Origin: an uncultured Planctomycetaceae bacterium
GTDB taxonomy: Bacteria; Planctomycetota; Planctomycetia; Planctomycetales; Planctomycetaceae
DNA length: 64,000 nucleotides
Direction of reading: 5' to 3'
NCBI GenBank assembly: GCA_963813715.1
Contig: CAWFAK010000009.1
Location: 1 to 64,000, forward strand
The position numbers were made by a program, and so were the translations under genes. The notes beneath the pieces were generated by a model that saw only the letters and a list, made by a program, of their open reading frames with translations, ran no database searches and had not been told where the DNA came from. Below, piece by piece: positions 24,914 to 40,055 of the stretch (the first letter of the stretch is position 1; every line of letters starts with the position of its first letter).

Positions 24914-25213
24914 ATGAAATACCTTCCGCTTGCGCTCGTAATCCTCTGCTCGGTTTCGCTCGGCTGCGGCCAGAGCACTCCCGTGATGACCAAGGCTCCC
25001 CCGGGATACCACGGCGGCCAGCCCACTCCGCCTGCTCCGGAGGAGGCCATCACCAAGCTCGAAACTCCCGAAGACAAGGCCCAGTACCTGCGCCAGCTGG
25101 CGAGCGACTCTTCGTTCAATCCGCAGCAGCACACAGACCTGCTCAAGAAGTACGCCGGCGACAGCAACGAGGAAGTGGCCTCGGCTGCGAAAACGTTGCT
25201 CGAGCGCCAGTAA
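24914..25213 (+). CDS. small lipoprotein
   Basis: MKYLPLALVILCSVSLGC lipobox; GGAG RBS. Confidence 0.7.
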   Translation: MKYLPLALVILCSVSLGCGQSTPVMTKAPPGYHGGQPTPPAPEEAITKLETPEDKAQYLRQLASDSSFNPQQHTDLLKKYAGDSNEEVASAAKTLLERQ

Positions 25214-25259
25214 CTTAAGTGCGAGTGACGCGCGTCACTCGCAACGGAGACCGACCGAA

Positions 25260-26525
25260 ATGAAATGGTTTCGCATCGTGTTGGGCAGTGCCGTGGCGCT
25301 CGCGAGCGTTTCGGCCACCATCTGGTGGGCGCGCTACGCCACCGGGGTCGAGCGTCCGGCGGCGCCACTCGATCCCGTCACCGCGCGGTATCGGGCGATG
25401 AAAGCGGGAGCAGCGCGGCAGGCGGGCCAGCCGGAATCGGAGACGGCGGACGCGGCCGCTACGCAAAGCGTCGATCCCTCGGTCGATCCGCGGCCCGCGC
25501 TCGTCGACCGAGCCCCCTTCCCCAAGGCCGTCGTGCACGAGCGGATTTACGAATTCGGCCGGATGGGGATTGGCGAGCACAAAAACCATCACTTCCGCAT
25601 CGAGAACCAGGGAGCCGGTCCGCTGGCGATCGCCAAGGGGCCGACCGAGTGCAAATGCACGATCAGCAACTTGGCCACGCGCGTCGTGCCGCCCGGGGGT
25701 TCTGCCGAGGTGGAAGTCGCCTGGGCGCCGCGCGAAGCCGATCCGACGTTCGAGAAGTCGGCCATTATTTGGACCAACGATCCCGACTTGCCGGAGATTC
25801 GCTTTCGCGTCGCCGGCAAGGTCGCTCGTGCGCTGGCCGTGACGCCGGTGGCCTGGCACGCCGGCCTCGTCGCCGAAGATCAGGAGGGTAAAGCCGTCGG
25901 CTCGGTGGTGTCCGATCTCGAGGCCGACTTCAAGATCCTCTCGGTCGAGACGCCCGATCCCAACGTGAAGATCAGCTACAAGCCGCTGTCGGCAAGCGCC
26001 CTCGATCGCCTCGGCATGCTGGGCGGCTACGAATTCACGGCCCGCGTCGGCAACGGCATTCCGCTCGGCACGTTTCGCACGCGGCTCAAGATCCTCACGT
26101 CGCTGGAGCCGAAGACGCCGCTCGCGGTCGAACTGACGGCTACGCGGCCGGGGCCGATCCACATTCTGTCGGCCGGCACGGCCCATTGGAGCCCGGAGAA
26201 GAGTCTGCTCAATCTGGGCCGCTTTCGACACGAGGACGGTTATCGCACCGAGGTGCCCGCCTACATCTACCACATGCCGGGCCCCTTCCGCGTGCTCGGC
26301 GTGAAGTCGAGCGACGGCTTCGTGAAGGTCTCCGTTGAGCCGAACCCGGGCAGCGGCAGCGAGAGTAAGTCGGGCGATCGGCAAGGCGTGCGATTCGTGT
26401 TCGAAGTGCCGCCTGGCTCGCCGCCGGTCAACTACTTCACGCAAAAGCCGGTGCACGTCACTCTCGAAACCAATCATCCCGTGTTGAAGACGATCGACTT
26501 CGATCTGCAGTTCGTATCACTGTGA
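25260..26525 (+). CDS. DUF1573-like Ig-fold exported protein
   Basis: YEFGRM..HHFRIENQGAGPL..ECKCT..VPPGGSAEV..WTNDP. Confidence 0.75.
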   Translation: MKWFRIVLGSAVALASVSATIWWARYATGVERPAAPLDPVTARYRAMKAGAARQAGQPESETADAAATQSVDPSVDPRPALVDRAPFPKAVVHERIYEFGRMGIGEHKNHHFRIENQGAGPLAIAKGPTECKCTISNLATRVVPPGGSAEVEVAWAPREADPTFEKSAIIWTNDPDLPEIRFRVAGKVARALAVTPVAWHAGLVAEDQEGKAVGSVVSDLEADFKILSVETPDPNVKISYKPLSASALDRLGMLGGYEFTARVGNGIPLGTFRTRLKILTSLEPKTPLAVELTATRPGPIHILSAGTAHWSPEKSLLNLGRFRHEDGYRTEVPAYIYHMPGPFRVLGVKSSDGFVKVSVEPNPGSGSESKSGDRQGVRFVFEVPPGSPPVNYFTQKPVHVTLETNHPVLKTIDFDLQFVSL

Positions 26526-26688: not shown

Positions 26689-27530
26689 ATGAACGGTCTC
26701 GGCCGGCCGCTGGCCCCCAATCATCGCATCCTGCCCGGCTATCGCCTGAGCCTGGGTTTCACGCTTTTGTATCTCACAGTGCTCGTCGGCATTCCGCTGG
26801 CCGCTTGCCTGGCGAAGGTCAGCTCGTTGTCGGCGGCCCAGTTTCTGGGAGCCGTCTGGACCGAGCGGGCCCGCGCGGCCTACCTGCTCACGTTCGGCGT
26901 TTCCTTCGCAGCGGCGGCCATCAACGTGCCGCTGGGACTGCTGCTGGCCTGGATCCTGGTCCGCTACGAGTTCCCGCTCAAGCGGGTGCTCGATTCGCTG
27001 ATCGATCTTCCGTTCGCGCTGCCGACGGCCGTCGCCGGGCTGGTCTATGCGAACCTGTACGTGCAGAACGGCTGGTTCGGCCGCTTCCTGGTGCCGCTGG
27101 GCATTCAGGGGGCCTATTCGCGGTTGGCGATTGTGCTCGTGCTGACGTTCATCGGCCTGCCGTTCGTCGTGCGGACGGTGCAGCCGGTGCTGGAAACGAT
27201 CGACGCGGAGATCGAAGAGGCGGCCGCCTCGCTGGGGGCGACCCGGCGCAAACGTTTAAGCGGGTGCTGCTGCCGTCGCTGCTTTCCGCACTCACCACCG
27301 GTTTTGCCCTGACGTTCGCCCGTTCGCTGGGCGAATACGGCTCGGTGGTCTTCGTCTCGGGCAACATCATGTTCAAAACCGAGATCGCCCCCGTGCTGAT
27401 CGTCAACCAGCTCGAGGAGTACCACTACGCCGAAGCCACGGCCATCGCGCTCGTGCTGTTGGCCGGTTCGTTCGCCACGCTGGCGGTGATCAACTCGCTC
27501 GAACGCTGGAGCCGCCGCCATGAAGGCTGA
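26689..27530 (+). CDS. cysT: sulfate ABC transporter permease CysT (frameshift near 27245)
   Basis: DLPFALPTAVAG, LPFVVRTVQPVL, EEAAASLGA, RSLGEYGSVVF. Confidence 0.92.
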
Positions 27531-28601
27531 GCCCGCCGCGGCGAAATTGCCCGCGCGGCGCGATCGGCAGGATCCGCTCTATATTCGCGTGCCGCTGATT
27601 CTTGCCGGCTTCGCGATTGTCGGCATCCTGATCGTGGTTCCCATCGTGAACGTCTTCTACCAGGCGCTCGGCCAGGGGTTGGAGACCTATTGGCACAACC
27701 TGGTCGACGACCCCGACACGCGGAGCGCGATTTGGCTGACGTTGATCGTGGCGCCCGTCTCCGTCGCGGCGAATCTGCTCTTCGGCATTGCCGCGGCCTG
27801 GGCCGTCACGCGATTTCAGTTCCGCGGCCGCACGCTGCTCGTCACGCTGATCGACTTGCCGTTCGCCATCTCGCCGGTCGTCGCCGGGCTGATGTTCGTG
27901 CTGTTGTTCGGGCTGCAGGGATATTTCGGCCCCTGGCTCCGCGAGCACGGCGTGCGAATCATCTTCGCCCTGCCCGGCCTGATTCTGGCGACGACGTTCG
28001 TCACGCTCCCCTTCGTCGCCCGCGAATTGATCCCCGTGATGGAGGCGATCGGCCCCGACGAAGAAACAGCCGCCCTCAGCCTGGGCGCGTCGGGCTGGCA
28101 AATCTTCTGGCGGGTGACGCTGCCCAATATCAAATGGGCCCTGCTCTACGGCGTGATCTTGTGCAACGCGCGGGCGATGGGCGAGTTCGGGGCCGTCTAC
28201 GTCGTCTCCGGGCACATCGCCGGCCAGACCGACACGATGCCCCTCCGCGTGCAAAAACTGTTCGACGAATACAACAACCCCGGTTCCTTCGCCGTCGCCT
28301 CGCTGTTGACGTCACTGGCCTTGTTGACGCTGTTCGCCAAGGTCTGGCTCGAACGCAAAACGCGGCGGGAAATGGCGGCCGGCGCGGGCCGGTGCGATCG
28401 ATCCGAGTGCAAACCGTCCGAGTGCACTCGTCGAAAGCCCGATAGTTGCCGAATGCGCCCGTCGGCAGCGACCCGATCGCCGGCGAACTCGTGGCGAGCG
28501 ATTTGGTTTCGCCCGTGCCCGTCGAGCGCGTTCCCGTCCCGCACGTTCCTGTCGCACGAATTCCGATCGCAGCTGTCCCCGTCAGCCGGGAGATCCCGTG
28601 A
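27520..28601 (+). CDS. cysW: sulfate ABC transporter permease CysW (3' tail frameshifted)
   Basis: [48 protein letters not shown]. Confidence 0.92.
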
Positions 28602-29659
28602 GCATCGCCGTCCGCAACGTGGTCAAAAAGTTCGGCACCTTCACGGCGCTCGACGACGTGAGTCTCGACGTGCCGCACGGGTCGCTCGTGGCGCTGTTGG
28701 GACCGTCGGGATCGGGCAAGACGACGCTGCTCCGGATCATTGCCGGCCTGGAAGGTCCCGACGGCGGCAGCGTGCTCTATCACGACGAAGACGTGACGCA
28801 TCGCTCGCCCCGCGACCGCAACGTCGGCTTCGTGTTTCAGCATTACGCCCTCTTTCGCCACATGACGGTGTTCGAGAACGTGGCCTTCGGCCTCCGAGTC
28901 CGCCGGGCTCCCAAAGGCCAGGTCGATTCACGCGTGCGGGAACTGTTGCACCTGGTTCGCCTCGATGGGTTCGCCGGCCGCTATCCGCCGCAACTCTCGG
29001 GCGGGCAGCGGCAGCGGGTGGCGTTGGCGCGGGCGCTGGCAGTCGAGCCGGGCGTGCTGCTGCTCGACGAGCCGTTCGGTGCGCTCGACGCCAAGGTTCG
29101 GCAGGAGCTGCGGCAATGGCTCCGGCGGTTTCACGACGAGATCAAGGTCACCACGCTCTTCGTCACGCACGACCAGGAAGAGGCCTTCGAGGTGGCCGAT
29201 CGCGTCGTCGTGATGCACAACGGCCGCATCGAGCAGCAAGGCACGCCGCAGGAGGTTTTCGATCATCCCGCCAACGCGTTCGTGATGGATTTTCTGGGCA
29301 ACGTGAACGTCTTCCAGGGGCGAATTCAGGACGGCAAGATGCACTTGGGGAACATCGAAATGGCCTGCCCGGAATACACCAACGGCGAATCGCGGGCGGC
29401 TACCGCCTATATCCGCCCCCATGAGCTCGACATCGACCGCAGCCCGGCCGTCGCCTCGAGTCTGCGAGCCAAGGTGCTGCAGATCAATCCTAACGGCTCG
29501 GTGGCCAAGGTGCGGCTCGCCTCCGAGGAAGCGGCGTTTGAGCTGAACGTCGAAATCAATCTCGACCGCTATGCCGAGCTGGGCCTGCAGCCAGGCGACC
29601 TGGTCCACGTCGCCCCGCGGCGGTTTCGCGTTTTCTTCCCGGAGGATTATGCGATCTAA
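28598..29659 (+). CDS. cysA: sulfate ABC transporter ATP-binding protein
   Basis: [40 protein letters not shown]. Confidence 0.95.
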
Positions 29660-30243
29660 TGGCGGCGGACCGGGTTGACGACGTCTGCGCTCACCGGCGC
29701 CGGCTCGGCCGGCGGCGGACCGACCAGGTCGCCGAAAAGCTCGCCGCCGCCGAAGCCGAACGGCACGGCCGGCGAGTGCGGTTCGGCATTCGGCTGCACC
29801 TGATCGTCCGCGAGACGACGGCCGAGGCCTGGGCCGACGCGAATCGCCTGATCTCGCACCTGGACGACGCCACCATCGCCGCCGCTCAGTCGGCCCTCGC
29901 ACGGCACGACTCGGTCGGCCAGCAGCGGATGCTGAAGCTCCACGCCGGCAATCGCGACGCACTCGAGATCAGTCCCAACTTGTGGGCCGGCGTGGGACTG
30001 GTGCGGGAGAGGCCGTCGTCGGCGACCCCCGACGGTCGCCGCCCGCATGGCGAGTACGCCGAACTGGGCATCGACACGTTTATCTGCTCAGGCTATCCGA
30101 TCTCGAAGAGCCTATCGGTCGCCGAGCTGCTCTTCCCCACTTGCCTCTCGATCACGGCTCTGAACCCACTCGCCCTCTCGGTCCGCGGCGAAGTGATCGG
30201 CAATCACCTCGTGCCCGACTTCAAGGTCGAGGCGAAGAGCTGA
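29659..30243 (+). pseudogene. ssuD: C-terminal half of FMNH2-dependent alkanesulfonate monooxygenase
   Basis: [48 protein letters not shown]-terminal half absent. Confidence 0.75.
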
Positions 30244-31933
30244 TCGGCCAGGCCGTCCATCGCTTTGGCGACGGGCGGACGCAAAAGCGGGCCGGCGAGC
30301 GAATCGTGGAGGAAGCGTGCGACCGGATGGTCGGCTTTGTACGCCCGGCCGCCGCACAGCATGGCGGCCTGCGTCGCCGCCTCGACGGCCGTGATCGCGG
30401 CAAACGTCTTGCGCGGACCGTGCGATCACGGGCTGACGCGGGAAGCGGCCAACGCTCGTCACGGGCGACCGCCTCGACCAGTCCGGCCGCCGCGTCGAGA
30501 TTGAGCGCGCAGCGGGCCAGCGTGGCACGAATGTAGGATGACGCCGCGCCCGAGCCGCCGACCCCCTGCGTGGCCGCGTCGAGCGCCCCTTCGCCGATGC
30601 CGACGAACACCGCGGCAAACAGCACCGTCGACCAGTGCCGCGCGTTGACGCCTTCGAGACAACCGGAAAATCCCAACACGTTCGCCGCCGGCGCCTGGTC
30701 GAGACTCAGCCCGACGCTGGCCGTGGCCCGCATGCCGAGCGGATCCCAGGCATTGTCGAACGTGACGCCGGGTGCGGTGCGAGCCACGAAGAACCCGTCG
30801 ATCACGTCCTTGCCGTCATGTCCCTCGCCCACCCGCCTGGCCGCACAGAGAAAATAATCGGCGTCAGGGCCGATCGTCGCGAAGGATTTTTTGCCGGAGA
30901 GTCGATACGTGCCGTCGGCACCGCGGGCGGCCAGCGTTTTGGTTTGTGCGAGGTCGCCGCCCGCTCCCGGCTCGGAGTTCGCCACCGCCAGGATGCGGCC
31001 AGCCAGGCACTGCTCGGCGATCCAGCGCCGTCCGGCCGCCAGCTCATTGCGCCGATCCTCCGGAACGACCGCGTCGGGGATGCGGGCCGTGGCGGCGTTC
31101 CCCAACGGCATCGCCAGCGCGAGGGCCGTGGCGGGCGCTCGCCGCGCCAAATTGCGAATTGCCTGCGCGTTCTCGGCCAGCGAACAACCCCAGCCACCCA
31201 ACTCGACCGGCACAGGCGCGGAGAGGATGCCGCTCGTGCGAAAGTCGGCCAGCGTTTCGGCGGCGACGGTCACTTCGTCGCGGGCGTTCTGCTCGTCCTC
31301 GCGTCGCGCCCAGTCGTCGAGTCGCTGGGCGATCGCGTCGACAATCGATTTCCGCGCGGCCGCGTCGCCGTTCGAGTTCGGCGCGGCGCAAACGTTCGCG
31401 AGCGGCGCGAGCAACCGTTGCCGCGCGGCTTCGAGCACGGGCCGCAACTCGGTCGGAACGGGCGACGTGGCATCGGCCGGCGGCGGCGAAAACGCGTGCA
31501 GCGTGACGGCGTCCTTCAAACAGTGCAGGCGATGAAACGCCCCGCGCGGCAGAAAGCTCTCGTGCCCCTTCTCCAGCGTTTGCAGCTCGAAGCGATAGCC
31601 GCCCTGGCCGTCCGGCAGGTAGCGCTCCTCGACGAGCGTCCCGGAAACGACGCGGAGCAGCACGTGGCTCTCGCTATGTCCGTGTAGCACGCACGAGCGG
31701 CCGCCCACCCAGTGAGCGCGGGACGTCTCATGCTGCTGGGTCCGCTCGATCAGCGTTCGCAGATAGGCGGCTCCCGGCGCCGGCGAACCGACGGGACGCG
31801 CGACGGGCGCGGCCAGCTCATCCAACAAGTCGCGGAGGTAGAGGCGGACATCGAGCGTCTTCGGTTCGGCGGCGGGACGACTTTCCGAGCGACCACGAGC
31901 TGCCTCAGTTCGGCCGGTGAACAGAAGGGACAT
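30204..31933 (-). CDS. cysteine-dioxygenase-like cupin fused to acyl-CoA-dehydrogenase-fold flavoprotein
   Basis: Cupin: [72 protein letters not shown]; an indel near 30410 shifts the C-terminus (..[15 protein letters not shown]..) to a stop at 30204. Confidence 0.8.
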
Positions 31934-32010
31934 GCTGATGTTCTCCAGAAGGAACGCGTGCGAGCGCGGATCTTCGATAAGCGCGACTCTGGTTACGCGA
32001 ACGCCGTTCA

Positions 32011-32026
32011 CGCAAACCGCGTGCCC
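32011..32026 (-). promoter_or_regulatory. sigma-54 -24/-12 promoter candidate
   Basis: gGGCACGCGGTTTGCg (GG-N10-GC) ~80 bp upstream of the cupin-ACAD ATG, next to a divergent bEBP gene. Confidence 0.65.
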
Positions 32027-32249
32027 CCATCCTGAGGGCTGCATAAACCGGCACAATCGGCCGGTTCGCACCGACAAAACGGACAAATAGGCAGACTGGG
32101 GCCCCAAACGGCTCGCCTCCGCAGTCAGAAAATCCAGGAAGGCACGGAAAATCTGTTATATTTCCTGGGAATGGCTCATCGGCTGGATGCGCCTTTTGGA
32201 TCCCCGGCTGATCGATGCCTACAGGACGAGTCGCGAGGGAAACCCGAAC

Positions 32250-33881
<1,632 letters not shown>

Positions 33882-33921
33882 CGGATAAGCGAATCGCCGG
33901 GCTCGAACTCTCCGACCGCGC

Positions 33922-35329
33922 CTACGCGAAAATCTCCGTCACCACATTGCCGGCGACGTCCGTCAGGCGAAAGTCGCGGCCGGCGTAGCGGTAGGTCAGC
34001 TGCTCGTGGTCGAGGCCCATCAGGGCCAGGAGCGTGGCGTGCAGATCGGTCGTGTGCATGCGGCCGTCGACGGCGCGGATGCCATACTCGTCGGTGCTGC
34101 CGTACGAATAGCCGGCCTTTACGCCGGCGCCGGCCAGCCACATCGGATAGCCGGTGATGTTGTGGTCGCGGCCGTCGGGACCTTGCGCCGTCGGCAGGCG
34201 ACCGAACTCGCTGCCGAAGAGGACGAGCGTATCCTCGAGCAGGCCCCGCTGCTCGAGATCGGTCAGCAGCGCGGCCGTCGGCTGGTCGGTCATGCGGCTC
34301 TGCGAGATCAACCCTTTGTGCAAATTCGAGTGGTGGTCCCAGCCCGACTGGCAGACCTCGACGAAGCGCACGCCCGCCTCGCTCAGGCGCCGGGCCATCA
34401 GGCACTGCCGGGCGAAGCTCCCCTCCGGGCCCGGCTTCACGCCGTAGGCCTCGCGTACGGCTTCCGGCTCGCGGGAGATGTCGAGCAGGTTGGCGACTTT
34501 GCCCTCCATGCGAAACGCCAACTCGAACGATTGGATCACGCCGTCGAGTTCGTCGGGGGCGCCGGGGCTGGCGGCCAGGTCGCGATTCATCGCCTGGATC
34601 AAGTCGATCTGGCGGCGCTGCAGTCCGCGGGCCGTCTGCGCCCGCAGGTTGGGCATCTCGCCCGGTGTCGTTGATCCGCGTGCCTTGAAAGTGGGCCGGC
34701 AGAAACGCGCTGCCGTAGTTGAGGGCGCCGCCGAAATTCGGGGGCGGGTTGATCGTGATGTAGCCGGGCAGATCCTGGTTCTCGGTCCCCAGCCCGTAGA
34801 GCAGCCAGGCCCCCATTGACGGCCGCACGAGCGTGGCGTTCATCGCGCCGGTGTGCAGCTGCACGACGGCTTGTGGATGGGCCGGCGTGTCGGTGTGCAG
34901 TCCGCGAATGAAGCAGAGCTGATCGACTTTCTGCGCCACGTGCGGATAAAGTTCGGAAACCCACGTGCCGGTCTGCCCGTGCTGGGCGAAGCGAAATTTC
35001 GAGCCGGTGAGGGTGCCGCCGCCGGGGCCGACCTTGCCGTGATCAGCCTGCAGCTTCGGCTTGTATTCCCACGTATCGACCTGCGACGTGGCCCCTTCCA
35101 TGAAGAGGAAGATGATCCGCTTGGCCTTCACGCGCAACTGCGGCGGCTTGGGGGCGAGCAGTGCGCCGGCCGATGGACGCGAGACGCCGGCGGTCGCGCG
35201 GCGCGGGGCCGTTTGACCCAAGAGCCCGGCGAGCGCGACCAGACCGAAACCGCCGCTCGCGCTTTTGAGCGCTTGTCGGCGGGAGAAAACAGGATTCGCA
35301 GGCAGCCAGGGAAGCGGAGAACGGGACAT
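33922..35329 (-). CDS. DUF1501 domain protein with Tat-like leader (frameshift near 34660)
   Basis: SRRQAL, KAKRIIFLFMEG, PSMGAWLLYGLG, ARRLSEAGVRFVE, GWDHH, EFGR, GRDH. Confidence 0.9.
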
Positions 35330-35360
35330 TGCTCGGACCTTTGGCGGATCGAGCCCAGCA

Positions 35361-38124
35361 TTAACGGACATAACGAAACTCGGCCGCGCTCAATAATGCC
35401 TGACAAAAACTCTGCCACGCCACCGTGCGCGGATCGACGGACGACGACGCTTGTGCCGCGCTCGACTGTTCGACGTGCGGTTGTTCGACGCTCAACTGCG
35501 GGCGCGGCCCCGCGGTCGGCTTGCTCGAACGAACCACGGTCTGACTCACTTTGCGAATCGCCGGCCGGGCATTCTTGGACCGATTGGTTTTGGTGGGAGC
35601 CGTCTTGCTCGGCGAGGTTTTGCCGGCGACTTTCGCGGTTCGCGGGGCTTGTTGTCCGTCGTTGACGGCGACGGCGTAGGCCGCGAGGTAATCGGCGGCC
35701 CGCGCGGTCTCGGTTCCGCGGGCCGGGCGACCGAACACGAGGCGATAGGCCCGATCGATCCGCTCGGCGTCGGAGCGTTGCGTGGCGGCGAGCAACTGCG
35801 CGGCGAGTGCCTGCGACTCGGTCCGCACAAACGGATCGTTGAGCAGATAGAGGGCCTGTGGCGCGACGGTCGTCGTGTCGCGGGCGCCGGTCACCATTCC
35901 CTGCTCGGCAAAATCGAAGGCCGCCAGCGAATTGGGCGTCAGCCCGCGCAATAGCGGCAGGTAAACGCTGCGATGACGGCTGGCGGCGGCCGCGGCGGCC
36001 ATGCGTTGTGCCGGCGGGCCGTTGTTGGCCAGCTCGATCACCGGCAACTGCATCGCGGGCGAACCGACGGGCCGCGACAGATCGAGCTGGCCGGCGACGG
36101 CTAGCGTCGCGTCGCGAATTTCCTCCGCATCGAGCCGTCGCGGACTGTGCCGCCAGACGAGCCGATTATCCGGATCGATGCTCTCGGGCTCTGCCGGCGC
36201 GCTCGCGCTCAGCCGATAGGCCCGCGTGAGCATGATCGAACGGACGAGTTTCTTGAGCGACCAGCCGTCGCGAATCAGGCGATTCGCGAGGTGATCGAGC
36301 AGCTCGAGATGCGAAGGGACATCCCCGTTGATGCCGAAGTTGTCGACCGTCTTCACCAGCCCGCTGCCGAACAGATGGTGCCAGACGCGATTGACGATCA
36401 CCCGCGAGACGAGCGGATTCTGCGGACTGGTGAGCCACTGGGCCAGCTCGAGCCGGCCGCTGTGCCCCGGTGCGATCGTGGGCTGGCCGGCGAAGTGGAC
36501 CACGCTCAAGAAGCCGCGGGGAACGACGGCGCCGTGCTTTTCCGCCTCGCCACGAATGCGGATGGCCGCGTCGGCGACGATGGCGGCGTCGCGTGCTCCC
36601 TGCGCCACGGGTCCGTAGCCCGCCGGATCGGTCACGCGGGCCATTTGCGCTTGCAGCTCCTTCACTTTCTGACGGGCCCTCGCGCAGTTTGGCCGGATCT
36701 TTGGCCGCCTTCGCGGCGTCGAGCTCGTCGCGGGCCCGGCCCAGGTCGCGCCGCAAGCTGCGGATCTGCTCCGACGACGGCGGCGCCGCGCCGGTCCGAG
36801 GTGCCAGCGGCAGGAGCAGCCGCGGTTCGTAATAGTCGAGGTTTCCGCCTCCCATCTGGTTGCGGAGGGCCGCGCACAGGTCGCTGCTCTGGAAAATGCC
36901 GGCCAGGGCGTAATAGTCGGCCGTGGGGATCGGGTCGAATTTGTGATCGTGGCAGCGGGCGCAGCTGGCGGTGAGCGCCAGCGTGGACCGCGTCACCGTG
37001 TCGATCTGCTCGTCGATGTTGTCCATCACGAAGCGGACTTTGAACCGCTGGTTGACATCCTTCACGCCGACCGCGAGAAAGCCGGTGGCGATCAGGTGCT
37101 CGGCCCGTTCGGCCGCGGTCTTCCCCGGCAAGAGGTCGCCGGCGATCTGCTCGCGGAGAAATTCGTCGTAGGGCTTGTCGGCATTGAGAGCGTTGATGAC
37201 ATAGTCGCGATAGCGCCAGGCATGCGGATACGGCAGGTTCCGCGCCGAGCCCGTCGATTCGCCGTAGCGGGCCACGTCCAGCCAGTGCCGGCCCCAGCGT
37301 TCGCCGAAGGCGGGCGAAGCCAGCAAGCGGTCGACGAGCCGCTCGAACGCGGTGTCGGACTGATCGGCGAGAAAGGCGTCGATCTCGGCGAGCGTCGGCG
37401 GCAGACCGGTCAGGTCGAAGGTTGCCCGGCGGATGAGGGTCCGCTTGTCGGCGTCGGGCACCGGCTTGAGTCCCCGCTCGGTCATCCGCGCGAGCAGGAA
37501 ACGATCGATGGGGTCGCGCGCCCAGTCGGCGTCGCGGACGACCGGAACTTTTGGATCGCGGAGGGGCTGCCAGGCCCAGTGCTCTTTTCGCAACTTGGCA
37601 TAGTCGGCGACGATTTGCCGATCCGTCGCGACGGCTTCGACGCGGGTCCAGGCGGCCCCGTCACGAATCCACTGCTTCAAGATGGCGACGTCGGCCGCGG
37701 CCAGCGGTCGCTCGGGCGGCATCTTCAATTCGCCAACGCGAGTGACGGCCTTGATCAGCAGGCTCTCGTCCGGTTTGAAGGAAATCACCGCCGGCCCGCG
37801 ACTGCCGCCAGTGAGCAGGCCGTTGCGATCGTCGACGCGAAGGCCGCCGCGGGAATTCGTGTCGGCCGAGTGGCACGTGTAGCAGTTGGCGACCAACAGC
37901 GGCCGCACGCGCTTCTCGAAGAATTCGACAGCCGCTGCGTCGTTCGCGTTCACATCGTTCTTAGCCGCGTGGTGGCGAGCCGGCGGTTTGGCGATCGCCT
38001 GCGCGGGAACGAGAGCCGAGCTCAGCGTGCAAAGCGCGAGCGGAAGCACGGCAGCGAAAATGGAGCGAGTGGACACTCGGCAGCGGAGGCCGGCGTTCGG
38101 CAGTCGTCTTCCGAATTGCCGCAT
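35361..38124 (-). CDS. planctomycete cytochrome c + DUF1549/DUF1553 (PSD1) protein (frameshift near 36670)
   Basis: FFEKRVRPLLVANCYTCH, HWAWQP, DLTGLPPT, GERWGRHWLDVARY, CARCHDHKFDPI, RVIVNRVWHHLFG. Confidence 0.92.
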
Positions 38125-39075: not shown

Positions 39076-40055
39076 ATGCAGCCTATGAAGGATCCGGCTA
39101 TGTCCCTATCGACAGAACCTGTCGCGCAGGCCGCGGCGCCTGCGCCTCCCGTTGATCGCACGATGGAGGCCGTGGTGGCCGAACTGCGCGAGCTGCGGAA
39201 CGCGTCGCTCGCCGCGCGGCGTCGCTCTTCGAACCCGCTCAAGCTGCCGTCGCGCAAGTCGCTCAACGCGATCGTCGAGGGGCTGAGCACGGTGCTCTTT
39301 CCCAATCGGCTCGGCTCGCGGCAGCTAGCCCACGAAAGCATCGACTATTACGTCGGCCACACTCTCGACGATTCGTGCCGCGACCTCGTCGAACAGGTCG
39401 CGCTCGAGCTGCAGTTTGTCGGTGAACAGACCGACCCGCGCTGGCGGCCGCAAGGCGGAGGAGCTGGTCCGCGATTTCGCCCGCGGTCTGCCGCAAATTC
39501 GCCGATTGCTCGAGGCCGACATTCTGGCCGCTTACGAGGGGGACCCGGCCGCGCGAAGCATCGACGAAGTGCTGGCCTGCTACCCGGGTATCACGGCCAT
39601 CATCCACTACCGGCTGGCGCACTGCGCTACACGAGTTGGGGCTTCCGCTGATCGCGCGGATGATTGCCGAAATCGCCCACTCGGCAACGGGGATCGACAT
39701 CCATCCGGGCGCGCAGATCGGCAGTAGCTTTTTCATCGATCACGGTACGGGCGTCGTCATCGGCGAGACGGCCGTCCTGGGCGAGCGGGTGCGGCTCTAT
39801 CACGGCGTGACGCTCGGCGCCAAACGCTTCACCGTCGATGAGAGCGGCGTCCTGGTCAAAGGCACGGCCCGGCATCCGATCGTCGAAGACGACGTGGTGA
39901 TCTACGCCGGCGCCACGATCCTCGGCCGCGTGACAATCGGCCGCGGCTCAATCATCGGCGGCAACGTCTGGCTCACGCACAGCATCCCGCCAGGCAGCCA
40001 AATCTCGCAAGCCGCGCTGCGTGTCGAAGTCTTCGACGACGGCTCGGGGATCTGA
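39076..40055 (+). CDS. cysE: serine O-acetyltransferase (EpsC-type), frameshifted
   Basis: [59 protein letters not shown]. Confidence 0.92.

What the first reader, a model, noticed from the sequence alone, without database searches (positions are those of the whole stretch)
30204..31933. Thiol-dioxygenase-like cupin fused to an ACAD-fold flavoprotein under sigma-54 control
Seen: one frame joins a cupin with HxH plus a third His to an acyl-CoA-dehydrogenase fold. The CDO outer-sphere motif SLHxYSPP reads TLHAFSPP (Tyr to Phe). Known: ACAD-fold enzymes include sulfur-oxidising monooxygenases (DszC/SfnB type) and the 3-sulfinopropionyl-CoA desulfinase that acts downstream of thiol dioxygenation. 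Inference: a bifunctional thiol-oxidation/desulfination enzyme for organosulfur scavenging. I do not know of a characterised example of this fusion.
Basis: partly seen in the sequence, partly recalled or inferred. Interest (0 to 1): 0.72.

Follow-up and report, generated by a model that had tools for sequence, protein, structure and literature searches.

The report
Thiol-dioxygenase cupin fused to flavin oxygenase
A soil planctomycete carries a conserved, uncharacterised gene that joins an iron cupin of the cysteine-dioxygenase family to an acyl-CoA-dehydrogenase-fold flavoprotein under a sigma-54 promoter, probably for oxidising a thiol during sulfur acquisition, and its broken reading frame in this assembly looks like a sequencing error.

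Summary
The fusion is real, but the gene (minus strand, ATG 31933, stop ending 30204) is not one open frame here. One base is missing after 30410. Relatives and independent soil-metagenome contigs carry that base, and the 3' part shows dN = 0 against its nearest relative, so I read it as an assembly indel.

All 78 full-length homologues I aligned (514-589 aa, Planctomycetota MAGs) keep both halves. Two MAGs encode the halves as adjacent separate genes.

The N-half is a divergent cysteine/thiol-dioxygenase cupin. It keeps the 3-His site and the Tyr-x-Arg carboxylate pocket. Its best structure matches are B. subtilis CDO, ergothioneine dioxygenase and rat CDO. The outer-sphere Tyr is Phe in the window's clade (26 of 78) and co-varies with a new Cys.

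The C-half has the ACAD fold but lacks both catalytic Glu positions. It resembles the ACAD-fold oxygenases (nitrososynthases, DszC).

A -24/-12 sigma-54 element and a divergent GAF-type activator are conserved across the fusion loci. Stand-alone orthologues of the C-half sit beside SsuE, SfnG and SsuD.

Best reading: a two-step thiol-to-sulfinate-and-beyond oxygenase for sulfur scavenging. The chemistry is inferred, not shown.

The parts
30204..31933 (-). Whole cupin-ACAD fusion gene including the stop codon. About 575 codons once the missing base is allowed for.
   Evidence: tblastn of the 94%-identical P0002 gives two HSPs, 31966-30410 and 30410-30213, that together cover residues 2-586.
30410..30411 (.). 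Site of the single missing base (-1 frame break). The gene strand reads GCG-CAAG where relatives read GCGCCAAG or GCGCGAAG.
   Evidence: blastn against L003, L001 and L005. Contigs of runs X1 and X2 have one extra base behind 30410. The 3' part gives dN 0 / dS 0.24 against L003.
31394..31858 (-). Cupin domain (residues about 26-180) of the cysteine/thiol-dioxygenase family, with an N-terminal helix and a C-terminal linker helix.
   Evidence: AF2 models with pLDDT 88. Foldseek top hits are B. subtilis CDO 4qm9/3eqe at 5.5e-9, ergothioneine dioxygenase 8qfp at 5e-8 and rat CDO at 3.5e-7. Profile against PDB: 3eqe 7.4e-10.
31757..31765 (-). Tyr57-x-Arg59, which align with CDO Tyr58/Arg60 (substrate-carboxylate pocket).
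   Evidence: Alignment to CDOs. Tyr 78 of 78, Arg 74 of 78 with Lys in the other 4. The role of the Arg is taken from passages of bioRxiv 10.64898/2026.05.19.726356.
31676..31684 (-). His84-Gly-His86, the first two metal ligands.
   Evidence: 77 of 78 and 78 of 78 conserved. They align to the CDO HxH.
31520..31534 (-). His134 (third metal ligand) through Cys138 (the clade-specific Cys that co-varies with Phe148).
   Evidence: His 78 of 78. Cys accompanies Phe in 24 of 26 Phe sequences, and Ala accompanies Tyr in 51 of 52 Tyr sequences.
31481..31504 (-). TLHAFSPP, the outer-sphere Ser-His-Tyr motif of CDO with Tyr replaced by Phe148.
   Evidence: The column holds Tyr 52 and Phe 26 of 78.
30207..31366 (-). 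ACAD-fold flavoprotein half (residues about 190 to the end): N-alpha, beta and C-alpha domains.
   Evidence: Pfam Acyl-CoA_dh_N 1.5e-5, _M 1.7e-16, _1 1.1e-4. Foldseek: DnmZ/KijD3/ORF36 at 3e-19, DszC/TdsC at 2e-17.
30273..30287 (-). LLRPP, the stretch aligned with the ACAD 'YEGT' that holds the catalytic Glu. No acidic residue is present.
   Evidence: MAFFT alignment with this genome's own ACADs (YEGT in L021) and with DszC-like proteins (VHDP). The role of the Glu is recalled, not taken from a call.
32011..32026 (-). Sigma-54 type -24/-12 promoter GGGCACGCGGTTTGCG, about 80 nt upstream of the ATG.
   Evidence: The same element stands upstream of the gene in all 8 fusion loci (L001-L008) as well as the window, and it forms an invariant block in alignment A4.
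32128..32153 (-). Conserved direct repeat GATTTTC-N12-GATTTTC, a candidate activator-binding site (inferred only).
   Evidence: Conserved columns in the intergenic alignment of window, L003, L001 and L005. Sequence.
32187..33881 (+). Divergent sigma-54-dependent activator (weak GAF-like N-domain, AAA+ domain, HTH).
   Evidence: Pfam Sigma54_activat 5.2e-69. An orthologue lies divergently next to the fusion in 7 of 7 fusion loci that have upstream flank.
29659..30243 (+). Context: 5'-truncated remnant of an alkanesulfonate monooxygenase (ssuD) gene, convergent with the fusion gene and overlapping its end.
   Evidence: NCBIfam PRK00719 1.1e-53, profile positions 198-373 only. It is the only SsuD match in the genome.
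26689..29659 (+). Context: sulfate ABC transporter genes cysT (frameshifted near 27247), cysW and cysA.
   Evidence: The L001 orthologues were annotated by Pfam.

Best explanation
The gene encodes one polypeptide of about 575 residues with two catalytic halves.

The N-terminal half is a 3-His iron cupin of the cysteine/thiol-dioxygenase family. It keeps the Tyr-x-Arg pocket that holds a substrate carboxylate. It most likely adds O2 to a small carboxylate-bearing thiol (cysteine-like) to give a sulfinate.

The C-terminal half has the acyl-CoA-dehydrogenase fold but no catalytic base. It most likely works as a reduced-flavin-dependent oxygenase, like DszC, MsuC and the nitrososynthases. It would process the sulfinate further, either by S-oxygenation to the sulfonate as MsuC does, or by C-S cleavage that frees sulfite.

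Transcription starts at a sigma-54 promoter and depends on the divergently encoded GAF-type activator, as part of sulfur acquisition.

The frame break at 30410/30411 is an assembly error, not a feature of the gene.

Shown: the domain identities, conservation of the fusion, the active-site residues, the promoter element, the gene neighbourhoods and the indel. Inferred: the substrate, both reactions and the regulatory signal.
For: Fusion:
- All 78 aligned full-length homologues have invariant residues in both halves.
- The halves are separate adjacent genes in L014 and L016.
- The same cupin subfamily is also fused to a different FAD/NAD(P)-binding protein, P0147.

Cupin:
- Profile against PDB: the top 26 sequences are all CDO-labelled entries; among the PDB codes there are 8qfl/8qfo/8qfq/8qfr, whose entries titles ergothioneine dioxygenase. 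Best hit is 3eqe at 7.4e-10.
- Foldseek gives the same families.
- Metal ligands 77-78 of 78, Tyr58 78 of 78, Arg60 74 of 78.
- dN/dS of the cupin is 0.07-0.21 within the Phe clade.

ACAD half:
- Best matches are nitrososynthases and DszC/TdsC.
- There is no Glu at either ACAD base position.
- The C-domain fits Acyl-CoA_dh_2 better than _1 in L001, L002, L005 and L012.

Sulfur and flavin context of the 52-56%-identical stand-alone orthologues:
- An FMN_red gene (Pfam) and ribBA in L009 and L019; the L009 gene scores as SsuE (207 bits against a cut-off of 164).
- SfnG (631 against 383), SsuD (617 against 518), two DszC/SfnB-like genes and a sigma-54 activator in L012.

Context of the fusion itself:
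- cysTWA in the window, L001 and L003; a CysE/EpsC-like gene in L001; an ssuD remnant in the window.

Regulation:
- The -24/-12 element is present in the window and all 8 fusion loci, and also in L009, L010, L012 and L013.
- The activator is adjacent in 7 of 7. rpoN is present in the genome.
- Known precedent: SfnR/sigma-54 control of the sfn/msu genes, and MsuC as an ACAD-fold sulfinate oxygenase (PMC8234197, passages).

Indel.
Against: - No activity, metal or flavin has been measured.
- The window's clade has Phe where CDO has Tyr157. Human CDO1 Y157F is used as a catalytically inactive control (PMC6584702, passages).
- Pfam CDO_I is below threshold.
- The ACAD half reaches no named family: DszC 51 of 850 bits, SfnB 49 of 431, desulfinase 60 of 600. 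True ACADs score nearly as well as the oxygenases.
- MsuC itself is a weak match (3e-11, partial).
- No flavin reductase or LLM monooxygenase lies beside the fusion gene in the 6 fusion loci scanned with Pfam.
- The own genome (82.6% complete) shows only one weak FMN_red hit and no intact ssuD.
- Apart from the activator, the neighbours of the fusion vary between loci.
- Oxidising cysteine itself makes little sense under sulfur limitation, so the real thiol is unknown.
Confidence: 0.5

Rival explanations
1. One reading: a fused Mdo-Acd pair. The cupin makes a sulfinate (for example 3-sulfinopropionate). A housekeeping CoA ligase or transferase activates it. The ACAD-fold half then acts as a non-redox sulfinyl-CoA desulfinase that releases sulfite.
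For: In Advenella mimigardefordensis the desulfinase gene acd and the thiol dioxygenase gene mdo are adjacent, next to a CoA transferase (PMC5373536, passages). A dioxygenase plus ACAD-fold partnership therefore has a characterised precedent. The ACAD half lacks the catalytic Glu. P0002 aligns over the whole desulfinase model at 1.4e-16, slightly better than to DszC or SfnB. In Advenella the activation is done by SucCD, a housekeeping enzyme, so a missing neighbour gene is weak evidence against.
Against: 60 bits against a cut-off of 600. The solved desulfinase 5af7 ranks far below the nitrososynthases, the ACADs and DszC (7.3e-13). There is no CoA ligase or transferase in the 6 fusion and 2 split loci scanned. 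The stand-alone orthologues sit beside an SsuE-type FMN reductase and ribBA, which a non-redox desulfinase would not need. The cupin has the Arg-type (CDO-like) pocket; the Gln-type entry 4qma scores only 0.02.
Confidence: 0.2
2. In the Phe clade the cupin is catalytically dead. It serves only as a substrate-binding, scaffolding or regulatory domain, and the protein acts solely through its flavin half.
For: Tyr157 is replaced by Phe in the window and in 26 of 78 homologues. Y157F is treated as inactive in human CDO1. The two split-gene loci have also lost the outer-sphere His and Tyr.
Against: The three His ligands, Tyr58 and Arg60 are kept throughout the Phe clade. The cupin's dN/dS is 0.07-0.21. 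Phe co-varies with a new Cys four residues after the third His ligand (24 of 26). That looks like a remodelled active site rather than a decaying one.
Confidence: 0.1
3. The gene is a true pseudogene in this organism, and the 1-nt deletion is real.
For: The window sequence as given is broken. Copies in three related long-read MAGs are also broken: L003, L005 and L004. The adjacent ssuD is a remnant.
Against: Each broken copy is broken at a different place. All four short-read MAG copies are intact: L001, L006, L007 and L008. Contigs of two other soil runs, one 251 of 252 identical, have the extra base. The 3' segment shows dN 0 / dS 0.24 against L003. At least three other genes within 14 kb carry frameshifts, as expected of an error-prone assembly.
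Confidence: 0.1
4. The enzyme is not a sulfur enzyme. The ACAD-fold half is an N-oxygenase like the nitrososynthases, acting with the cupin on an amine or another metabolite.
For: The best sequence-profile and fold matches of the C-half are DnmZ, KijD3 and ORF36.
Against: Identity to them is only 22-25%. No sugar-nucleotide or natural-product genes lie nearby. The cupin has the thiol-dioxygenase site. Sulfur genes recur around the family.
Confidence: 0.07

Closest known systems
Bacterial and mammalian cysteine dioxygenase (CDO; B. subtilis YubC 3eqe/4qm9, rat CDO1) and other thiol dioxygenases (ergothioneine dioxygenase 8qfl, MSDO, MDO)
   Same: Cupin fold. 3-His metal site. Tyr58/Arg60-type carboxylate pocket. 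Ser/Thr-His outer-sphere residues and the SPP turn.
   Different: Only about 20-28% identical and below the Pfam CDO_I threshold. Fused to a 390-residue flavoprotein. Tyr157 is Phe in the window's clade, paired with a new Cys. There is no Cys93 equivalent.
ACAD-fold (group D) flavin-dependent oxygenases: DszC/TdsC, MsuC, SfnB, and the nitrososynthases DnmZ/KijD3/ORF36
   Same: Three-domain ACAD fold without the catalytic Glu. A Pro-containing motif stands in place of YEGT. Orthologues are linked to SsuE, SfnG, SsuD and sigma-54 activators.
   Different: 18-25% identity. Scores are far below the DszC and SfnB cut-offs. It carries its own conserved motifs ([23 protein letters not shown]). It is covalently joined to a dioxygenase. 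The flavin type and the reaction are unknown.
Mdo-Acd pair of Advenella mimigardefordensis (3-mercaptopropionate dioxygenase plus 3-sulfinopropionyl-CoA desulfinase)
   Same: A CDO-family dioxygenase partnered with an ACAD-fold protein that is not a dehydrogenase, for releasing sulfite from a thiol. The two genes are adjacent.
   Different: In Advenella these are two proteins with a CoA-activation step between them. Here it is one polypeptide, with an Arg-type rather than Gln-type pocket, no CoA-activating neighbour, and 60 of 600 bits to the desulfinase model.
SfnR / sigma-54 controlled sfn-msu sulfur-scavenging genes of Pseudomonas
   Same: A sigma-54 activator next to ACAD-fold and LLM oxygenase genes used under sulfate limitation. 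L012 has SfnG, SsuD, DszC/SfnB-like genes and a sigma-54 activator around the stand-alone orthologue.
   Different: The activator here has a GAF-like N-domain. No SfnG or intact SsuD accompanies the fusion gene. Its cupin has no counterpart in the Pseudomonas pathway.

Membership tests
Cysteine/thiol dioxygenase family (Pfam CDO_I, PF05995) | Sequence passes the Pfam CDO_I gathering score | tested here: not met
   15.3 bits against a cut-off of 23, E 0.015. Stand-alone members of the same subfamily are also borderline.
Cysteine/thiol dioxygenase family (Pfam CDO_I, PF05995) | Cupin fold closest to solved thiol dioxygenases | tested here: met
   Foldseek with the cupin-only model: 4qm9/3eqe at 5.5e-9, ergothioneine dioxygenase at 5e-8, rat CDO at 3.5e-7. 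Profile against PDB: the top 26 sequences are all CDO-labelled entries, several of them ergothioneine dioxygenase by PDB code.
Cysteine/thiol dioxygenase family (Pfam CDO_I, PF05995) | 3-His facial triad (CDO His86, His88, His140) | tested here: met
   Window H84, H86 and H134. Conserved 77, 78 and 78 of 78.
Cysteine/thiol dioxygenase family (Pfam CDO_I, PF05995) | Arg-type substrate-carboxylate pocket (Tyr58, Arg60) | tested here: met
   Window Y57 and R59. Tyr 78 of 78, Arg 74 of 78 plus 4 Lys. Alignment.
Cysteine/thiol dioxygenase family (Pfam CDO_I, PF05995) | Outer-sphere Ser-His-Tyr triad (Ser153, His155, Tyr157) | tested here: not met
   The window reads Thr-x-His-x-Phe. The family has Tyr in 52 of 78 and Phe in 26 of 78, and His in 76 of 78.
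Cysteine/thiol dioxygenase family (Pfam CDO_I, PF05995) | Fe-dependent thiol dioxygenation activity | not testable with these tools
   Needs purified protein.
True acyl-CoA dehydrogenases | Three-domain ACAD fold | tested here: met
   Pfam N, M and C domains. AF2 with Foldseek, target TM about 0.75-0.81 to ACADs.
True acyl-CoA dehydrogenases | Catalytic Glu base (YEGT position, or the alternative helix-G position of the IVD type) | tested here: not met
   LLRPP aligns with YEGT of the own-genome ACAD L021. NAR aligns with ESE-R of the IVD-like L020. The identity of the base positions is recalled.
ACAD-fold two-component flavin oxygenases (DszC, SfnB, MsuC, nitrososynthases) | Reaches the curated NCBIfam score of a named member | tested here: not met
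   DszC 51.1 of 850, SfnB 49.2 of 430.9 for P0002. Similar for the window.
ACAD-fold two-component flavin oxygenases (DszC, SfnB, MsuC, nitrososynthases) | Closest solved structures are members of the group | tested here: met
   DnmZ 9e-27 (profile). Foldseek ranks 1-10 are nitrososynthases, followed by DszC/TdsC. True ACADs follow closely.
ACAD-fold two-component flavin oxygenases (DszC, SfnB, MsuC, nitrososynthases) | A separate flavin reductase partner | tested here: inconclusive
   An FMN_red gene (Pfam) lies beside the stand-alone orthologue in L009 and L019; only the L009 gene was scored with NCBIfam and passes as SsuE. L010 has ORFs of the same sizes but was not scanned. None lies beside the fusion gene in the 6 fusion loci scanned. 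The own genome has one weak FMN_red hit.
3-sulfinopropionyl-CoA desulfinase (NF042439) | Reaches the curated score | tested here: not met
   60.2 of 600 bits for P0002 and 44 for the window piece.
3-sulfinopropionyl-CoA desulfinase (NF042439) | Acts on a CoA thioester, with a CoA-activating enzyme in the pathway | tested here: inconclusive
   No CoA ligase or transferase among the neighbours in L001, L002, L005-L008, L014 and L016. L003 and L004 were checked only by tblastn with window proteins. A housekeeping SucCD could serve.
Sigma-54-dependent gene | -24 GG / -12 GC promoter element upstream | tested here: met
   32011-32026 (-). Present in the window and all 8 fusion loci (L001-L008) with at most 3 mismatches and an intact GG/GC core. 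It forms an invariant block in A4. Window-wide counts are not above chance, so position and conservation carry the argument.
Sigma-54-dependent gene | Cognate enhancer-binding protein and rpoN present | tested here: met
   Activator at 32187-33881, adjacent in 7 of 7 loci. rpoN at C8:320178-320651.
Sigma-54-dependent gene | Transcription actually depends on sigma-54 | not testable with these tools
   Needs genetics or in vitro transcription.

The most novel reading that the evidence does not exclude
A self-contained 'thiol-to-sulfite' enzyme. The iron cupin dioxygenates an environmental thiol to its sulfinate and hands it directly to the fused ACAD-fold flavin domain. That domain frees the sulfur as sulfite, or as a sulfonate ready for cleavage, without CoA activation. 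This would be a new route for sulfur scavenging in soil Planctomycetota, switched on by sigma-54. In the window's clade the catalytic Tyr of all known thiol dioxygenases would be functionally replaced by a Cys (the Phe148/Cys138 pair), giving a new outer-sphere solution for this enzyme family.
Probability: 0.2. Interest if true: 0.75.

Novelty: new variant of a known kind. Interest (0 to 1): 0.56.

Why it matters
Thiol dioxygenases are known as small stand-alone enzymes. How their sulfinate products are processed differs from case to case: spontaneous decay, transamination, or CoA activation followed by a desulfinase.

A natural, conserved fusion to an ACAD-fold flavoprotein says that in a whole group of soil bacteria the two steps are coupled in one protein. 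That gives a direct handle on the unknown function of a distinct ACAD-fold subfamily found in sulfur-starvation clusters.

The clade-wide Tyr-to-Phe change with a co-varying Cys is a natural experiment on the disputed role of the outer-sphere Tyr.

For annotation, these proteins are currently named 'AidB-like acyl-CoA dehydrogenase', which is almost certainly wrong.

Tried and rejected
- The ESM Atlas look-up of P0004 gave only generic ACAD clusters at 0.86-0.87, below the 0.9 lead level, and no structure search.
- Earlier-findings look-ups by place and by sequence returned nothing.
- The window-wide count of sigma-54-like sites (8) is not above shuffles (mean 11.2), so enrichment was dropped as an argument.
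- The small DUF6016 cupin next to the stand-alone orthologue in L009 and L010 is not demonstrably the same cupin (hhalign E 0.011 and 0.04, probability under 4%).
- The extra N-terminal 220 residues of P0109 are not this cupin and have no Pfam hit.
- The own genome has no intact ssuD and only one weak FMN_red hit. The assembly is 82.6% complete and has many indels, so absence is not shown.
- Literature searches found no paper on the fusion: CDO + ACAD + fusion + cupin (one unrelated paper); thiol dioxygenase + ACAD (two unrelated papers listed); CDO + Planctomycetes + sulfinate (none). The SfnR + sigma-54 + sulfur search found nothing, probably because papers write sigma as a Greek letter.
- My first 'acad' query was cut out of frame, so its hits are meaningless and are not used.
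- My GC3-based ORF picker chose a wrong-frame ORF for the ACAD gene of L014 (protein 57). tblastn was used instead.
- Parts of the gene without contig cover in single runs were not interpreted.
- The contigs in RNA run X17 that match the gene show presence in an RNA library only, not transcription.
The Cys138-to-metal distance and the domain interface could therefore not be measured.
Full report
WHAT IS IN THE SEQUENCE

The feature is a gene on the minus strand. Translation from the ATG at 31933 gives a cupin with HGH (H84/H86), a third His (H134) and TLHAFSPP (residues 144-151). Acyl-CoA_dh_N and Acyl-CoA_dh_M domains follow in the same frame.

The frame from 31933 loses homology after about 30411 and runs on to 30221. 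The genuine ACAD C-terminal domain (68 codons, 30410-30207) is in the -1 frame. tblastn with the 94%-identical P0002 gives two abutting HSPs, 31966-30410 and 30410-30213, that together cover residues 2-586.

THE FRAME BREAK IS MOST LIKELY AN ASSEMBLY ERROR

- The window lacks one base after 30410 relative to L003, L005 and L001. The gene strand reads GCG-CAAG where they read GCGCCAAG or GCGCGAAG.
- Contigs from two other soil metagenome runs carry an extra base at exactly that place. X1 has one mismatch in 252 nt; X2 has 8 in 320 nt. X1 could be the source sample, which would make the point stronger, not weaker.
- The 62 aligned codons downstream of the break show dN 0 / dS 0.24 against L003.
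- The same gene is broken at different places in three related long-read MAGs. L003 and L005 have one frameshift each, and L004 has two compensating indels enclosing a stop.
- The gene is intact in L002 and in all four short-read MAG copies: L001, L006, L007 and L008.
- cysT, a DUF1501 gene and a CysE-like gene within 14 kb of the fusion are also frameshifted.
- The genome is 7.49 Mb in 18 contigs at 82.6% estimated completeness.

The cupin-ACAD junction is not affected. It is continuous in the window and is bridged without gaps by X2 record 14 (30705-31464) and X1 record 7 (31370-31702).

THE FUSION IS A CONSERVED FAMILY

The word-index search returned 244 proteins at E <= 0.001, of which 120 were listed. 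I aligned 78 of those 120, covering 514-589 aa. I left out the shorter or partial rows, P0003 (aberrant internal deletions), P0109, and four rows of 517-521 aa (P0048, P0056, P0065, P0072) that I simply did not include.

All 78 have invariant columns in both halves.

In species-representative genomes the fusion occurs in Planctomycetaceae, Gemmataceae and Pirellulales MAGs (L001-L008).

In two MAGs labelled Thermoplasmata (L014, L016) the cupin ORF ends with a stop and the ACAD gene follows in another frame. These are true adjacent genes.

Stand-alone orthologues of the ACAD half, 48-56% identical, occur in Polyangiales, other Myxococcota and Bdellovibrionales.

A profile of the cupin alone, searched against 1.84 billion representatives, found 143 proteins at E <= 1e-10. 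They include stand-alone cupins of 160-210 aa, a different fusion (P0147: FAD/NAD(P)-binding domain plus this cupin) and, further out, bona fide CDO_I proteins.

THE CUPIN HALF

Pfam CDO_I alone is sub-threshold (15.3 bits against 23). Other evidence places it in the CDO family:

- A profile of 11 cupin domains hits only CDO-labelled entries in its first 26 PDB sequences. B. subtilis YubC 3eqe scores 7.4e-10, the 8qfl/8qfr entries about 4e-8, and rat and human CDO1 from 1e-8 to 1e-6. The Gln-type 4qma scores only 0.02.
- titles the 8qfl/8qfr entries ergothioneine dioxygenase.
- A cupin-only AF2 model (pLDDT 88.4) has the same families as its top Foldseek matches.

Residue by residue, in P0004 numbering:

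| Position | Role in CDO | Count in the 78 |
|---|---|---|
| Tyr58 | carboxylate pocket | 78 |
| Arg60 | carboxylate pocket | 74 (Lys in 4) |
| His85 | metal ligand | 77 |
| His87 | metal ligand | 78 |
| His135 | metal ligand | 78 |
| Thr/Ser145 | outer sphere | 77 |
| His147 | outer sphere | 76 |
| Pro151 | SPP turn | 78 |

According to passages of a 2026 preprint on thiol dioxygenases, the Arg is the carboxylate-binding residue shared by CDO and mercaptosuccinate dioxygenase, and Ser-His-Tyr is the conserved outer-sphere motif.

This is a divergent but recognisable Arg-type thiol dioxygenase domain.

THE TYR-TO-PHE CHANGE

The Tyr157 column holds Tyr in 52 and Phe in 26 of 78. The Phe is therefore a trait of the window's clade, not of the family.

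Phe goes with Cys at the position four residues after the third His ligand in 24 of 26 Phe sequences. Tyr goes with Ala there in 51 of 52 Tyr sequences.

Within the Phe clade the cupin is under purifying selection, with dN/dS of 0.07, 0.21 and 0.16 against L003, L001 and L002.

Human CDO1 Y157F is used as an inactive control (PMC6584702, passages). The change therefore matters for canonical chemistry. I read the Phe/Cys pair as a remodelled site rather than a dead one. That is an inference: I could not measure distances because model coordinates are not exposed.

THE ACAD-FOLD HALF

The full-length AF2 model is confident (pLDDT 88.7, pTM 0.84).

By sequence profile, the best PDB matches are the nitrososynthase DnmZ (9e-27), ordinary ACADs (1e-26 and down) and KijD3. 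DszC/TdsC score about 1e-15, the desulfinase 5af7 scores 7e-13, and MsuC scores 3e-11.

Foldseek ranks the nitrososynthases first, then DszC/TdsC, with ACADs close behind.

No NCBIfam equivalog is approached: FadE16 74.5 of 600, desulfinase 60.2 of 600, DszC 51.1 of 850, SfnB 49.2 of 431.

I aligned the half with ACADs of the same genome and with DszC-like proteins of L012. The family has LLRPP where a canonical ACAD has YEGT and DszC-like proteins have VHDP. It has NAR where an IVD-like ACAD has its alternative Glu. That these are the base positions is recalled knowledge. The half is therefore not a dehydrogenase.

The same alignment shows a gap where the own-genome ACADs L020 and L021 carry a short extra segment. 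I recall that segment as part of the FAD-ADP site. This weakly suggests non-ACAD flavin binding.

REGULATION

GGGCACGCGGTTTGCG at 32011-32026 (-) has the GG-N10-GC core and two mismatches to the sigma-54 consensus. Window-wide counts are at chance (8 observed against 11.2 expected), so the argument rests on position and conservation:

- An element with an intact core and at most 3 mismatches lies upstream of the gene in the window and all 8 fusion loci.
- It also lies upstream of the stand-alone orthologue in L009, L010, L012 and L013. It is absent in L014.
- At 2 mismatches or fewer, chance expectation is about 0.03 per 400-nt strand, and 10 of the 15 regions scanned have one.
- The element is an invariant block in the intergenic alignment. 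A GATTTTC direct repeat about 110 nt further upstream is also conserved.

A sigma-54 activator (Sigma54_activat 5e-69, weak GAF) is encoded divergently. It is adjacent in 7 of 7 fusion loci with upstream flank, and also in L009 and L010. rpoN is present.

CONTEXT

Around the fusion gene only the activator is constant. Other neighbours are:

- cysTWA in the window, L001 and L003.
- An EpsC/CysE-like serine acetyltransferase in L001.
- A 5'-truncated ssuD remnant in the window.
- Unrelated genes elsewhere.

L003 and L004 were compared only by tblastn with window proteins.

Around the stand-alone orthologues the picture is sharper:

- L009 and L019 have an FMN_red gene next to ribBA. The L009 gene scores as SsuE (207 bits against a cut-off of 164).
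- L012 has SfnG (631 against 383), SsuD (617 against 518), two DszC/SfnB-like genes and a sigma-54 activator fused to an SsuA-like domain.
- L013 has an LLM monooxygenase, a GST and an ABC exporter.
- Four more distant loci have only a Dus gene upstream.

This matches the Pseudomonas sfn/msu system, in which sigma-54/SfnR controls SfnG, the ACAD-fold sulfinate oxygenase MsuC and MsuD, all fed by an FMN reductase (PMC8234197, passages).

MECHANISM AND RIVALS

The best-supported model is a coupled two-step oxidation. The cupin turns a carboxylate-bearing thiol into its sulfinate. The flavin half, using reduced flavin and O2, oxidises the sulfinate further or cleaves it.

It loses on three counts: the reductase context of the orthologues, the lack of any CoA-activating neighbour, and the low score to the desulfinase model.

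I cannot tell S-oxygenation from C-S cleavage. The actual thiol is unknown, and cysteine itself would be an odd substrate under sulfur limitation.

The dead-cupin, true-pseudogene and N-oxygenase readings are less likely, for the reasons given in the rival entries.

NOVELTY

Both halves belong to known superfamilies and the regulatory logic has a precedent. The architecture does not. My searches found no description of it, and databases name these proteins 'AidB-like acyl-CoA dehydrogenase'. Supplementary files were not consulted.

I class it as a new variant of a known kind, of moderate to good interest. It is a testable, widespread soil enzyme with a natural variant of the thiol-dioxygenase active site.

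Noticed in passing
window 29659-30243 (+): A 5'-truncated remnant of an alkanesulfonate monooxygenase gene (SsuD profile positions 198-373 only). It starts right at the cysA stop and overlaps the 3' end of the fusion gene. It is the only SsuD match in the assembly. Contigs of runs X1, X2 and X17 diverge from the window left of 30225, and X4 has 15 extra bases in 30132-30176, so this junction differs between strains.
   Followed up: partly
window about 27247 (cysT); 33497-35371 (DUF1501); 39082-40052 (CysE/EpsC-like): Three further genes near the finding are split over two or three frames when compared with intact orthologues. This fits an indel-rich long-read assembly.
   Followed up: partly
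A1 columns for P0004 residues 139 and 149 (window C138 at 31520-31522, F148 at 31490-31492): Near-perfect co-variation. Phe at the CDO Tyr157 position goes with Cys four residues after the third His ligand (24 of 26). Tyr goes with Ala (51 of 52). P0080 has Tyr with Cys.
   Followed up: partly
L014:4327-8130: In one MAG with the split cupin and ACAD genes, the ergothioneine biosynthesis genes EgtD (Methyltransf_33, 3e-107) and EgtB (FGE-sulfatase + DinB_2) lie directly upstream. Ergothioneine dioxygenase is among the closest solved structures of the cupin. This is a single locus and could be coincidence.
   Followed up: no
P0147 (687 aa): A second kind of fusion of the same cupin subfamily: an N-terminal FAD-NAD(P)-binding domain (PF13454, 1.8e-33) with the cupin at residues 512-635. 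This suggests repeated coupling of this cupin to flavoproteins.
   Followed up: no
P0138, P0139, P0164, P0167 and others (600-900 aa): Proteins made of three or four tandem CDO_I domains (CDO_I up to 4e-109 with 4 stretches). Origin and function unknown.
   Followed up: no
L009:5980-6594 (+) and L010:2337-2867 (+): A small DUF6016-type cupin gene sits between ribBA/SsuE and the sigma-54 activator, next to the stand-alone ACAD orthologue. Its similarity to the fused cupin is not significant (hhalign E 0.011 and 0.04).
   Followed up: yes
P0080 (550 aa): A full-length fusion homologue (47% identical) is filed in NCBI and UniRef as an acyl-CoA dehydrogenase of the eukaryote Gregarina niphandrodes, on a 343-kb contig. 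It could be contamination or gene transfer; this was not examined.
   Followed up: no
window 24990-26522 (+): The ORF upstream of cysT, conserved next to cysT in L003, matches only an 'OS_HP2 family (seleno)protein' domain (6.6e-15, below cut-off). It does not match a classical sulfate-binding protein.
   Followed up: no
window 30428-30771 and 31777-32100: A rhizosphere metatranscriptome run (X17) holds contigs identical or near-identical to parts of the gene (0 and 7 differences). This shows presence in an RNA library only. Transcription is not shown.
   Followed up: partly
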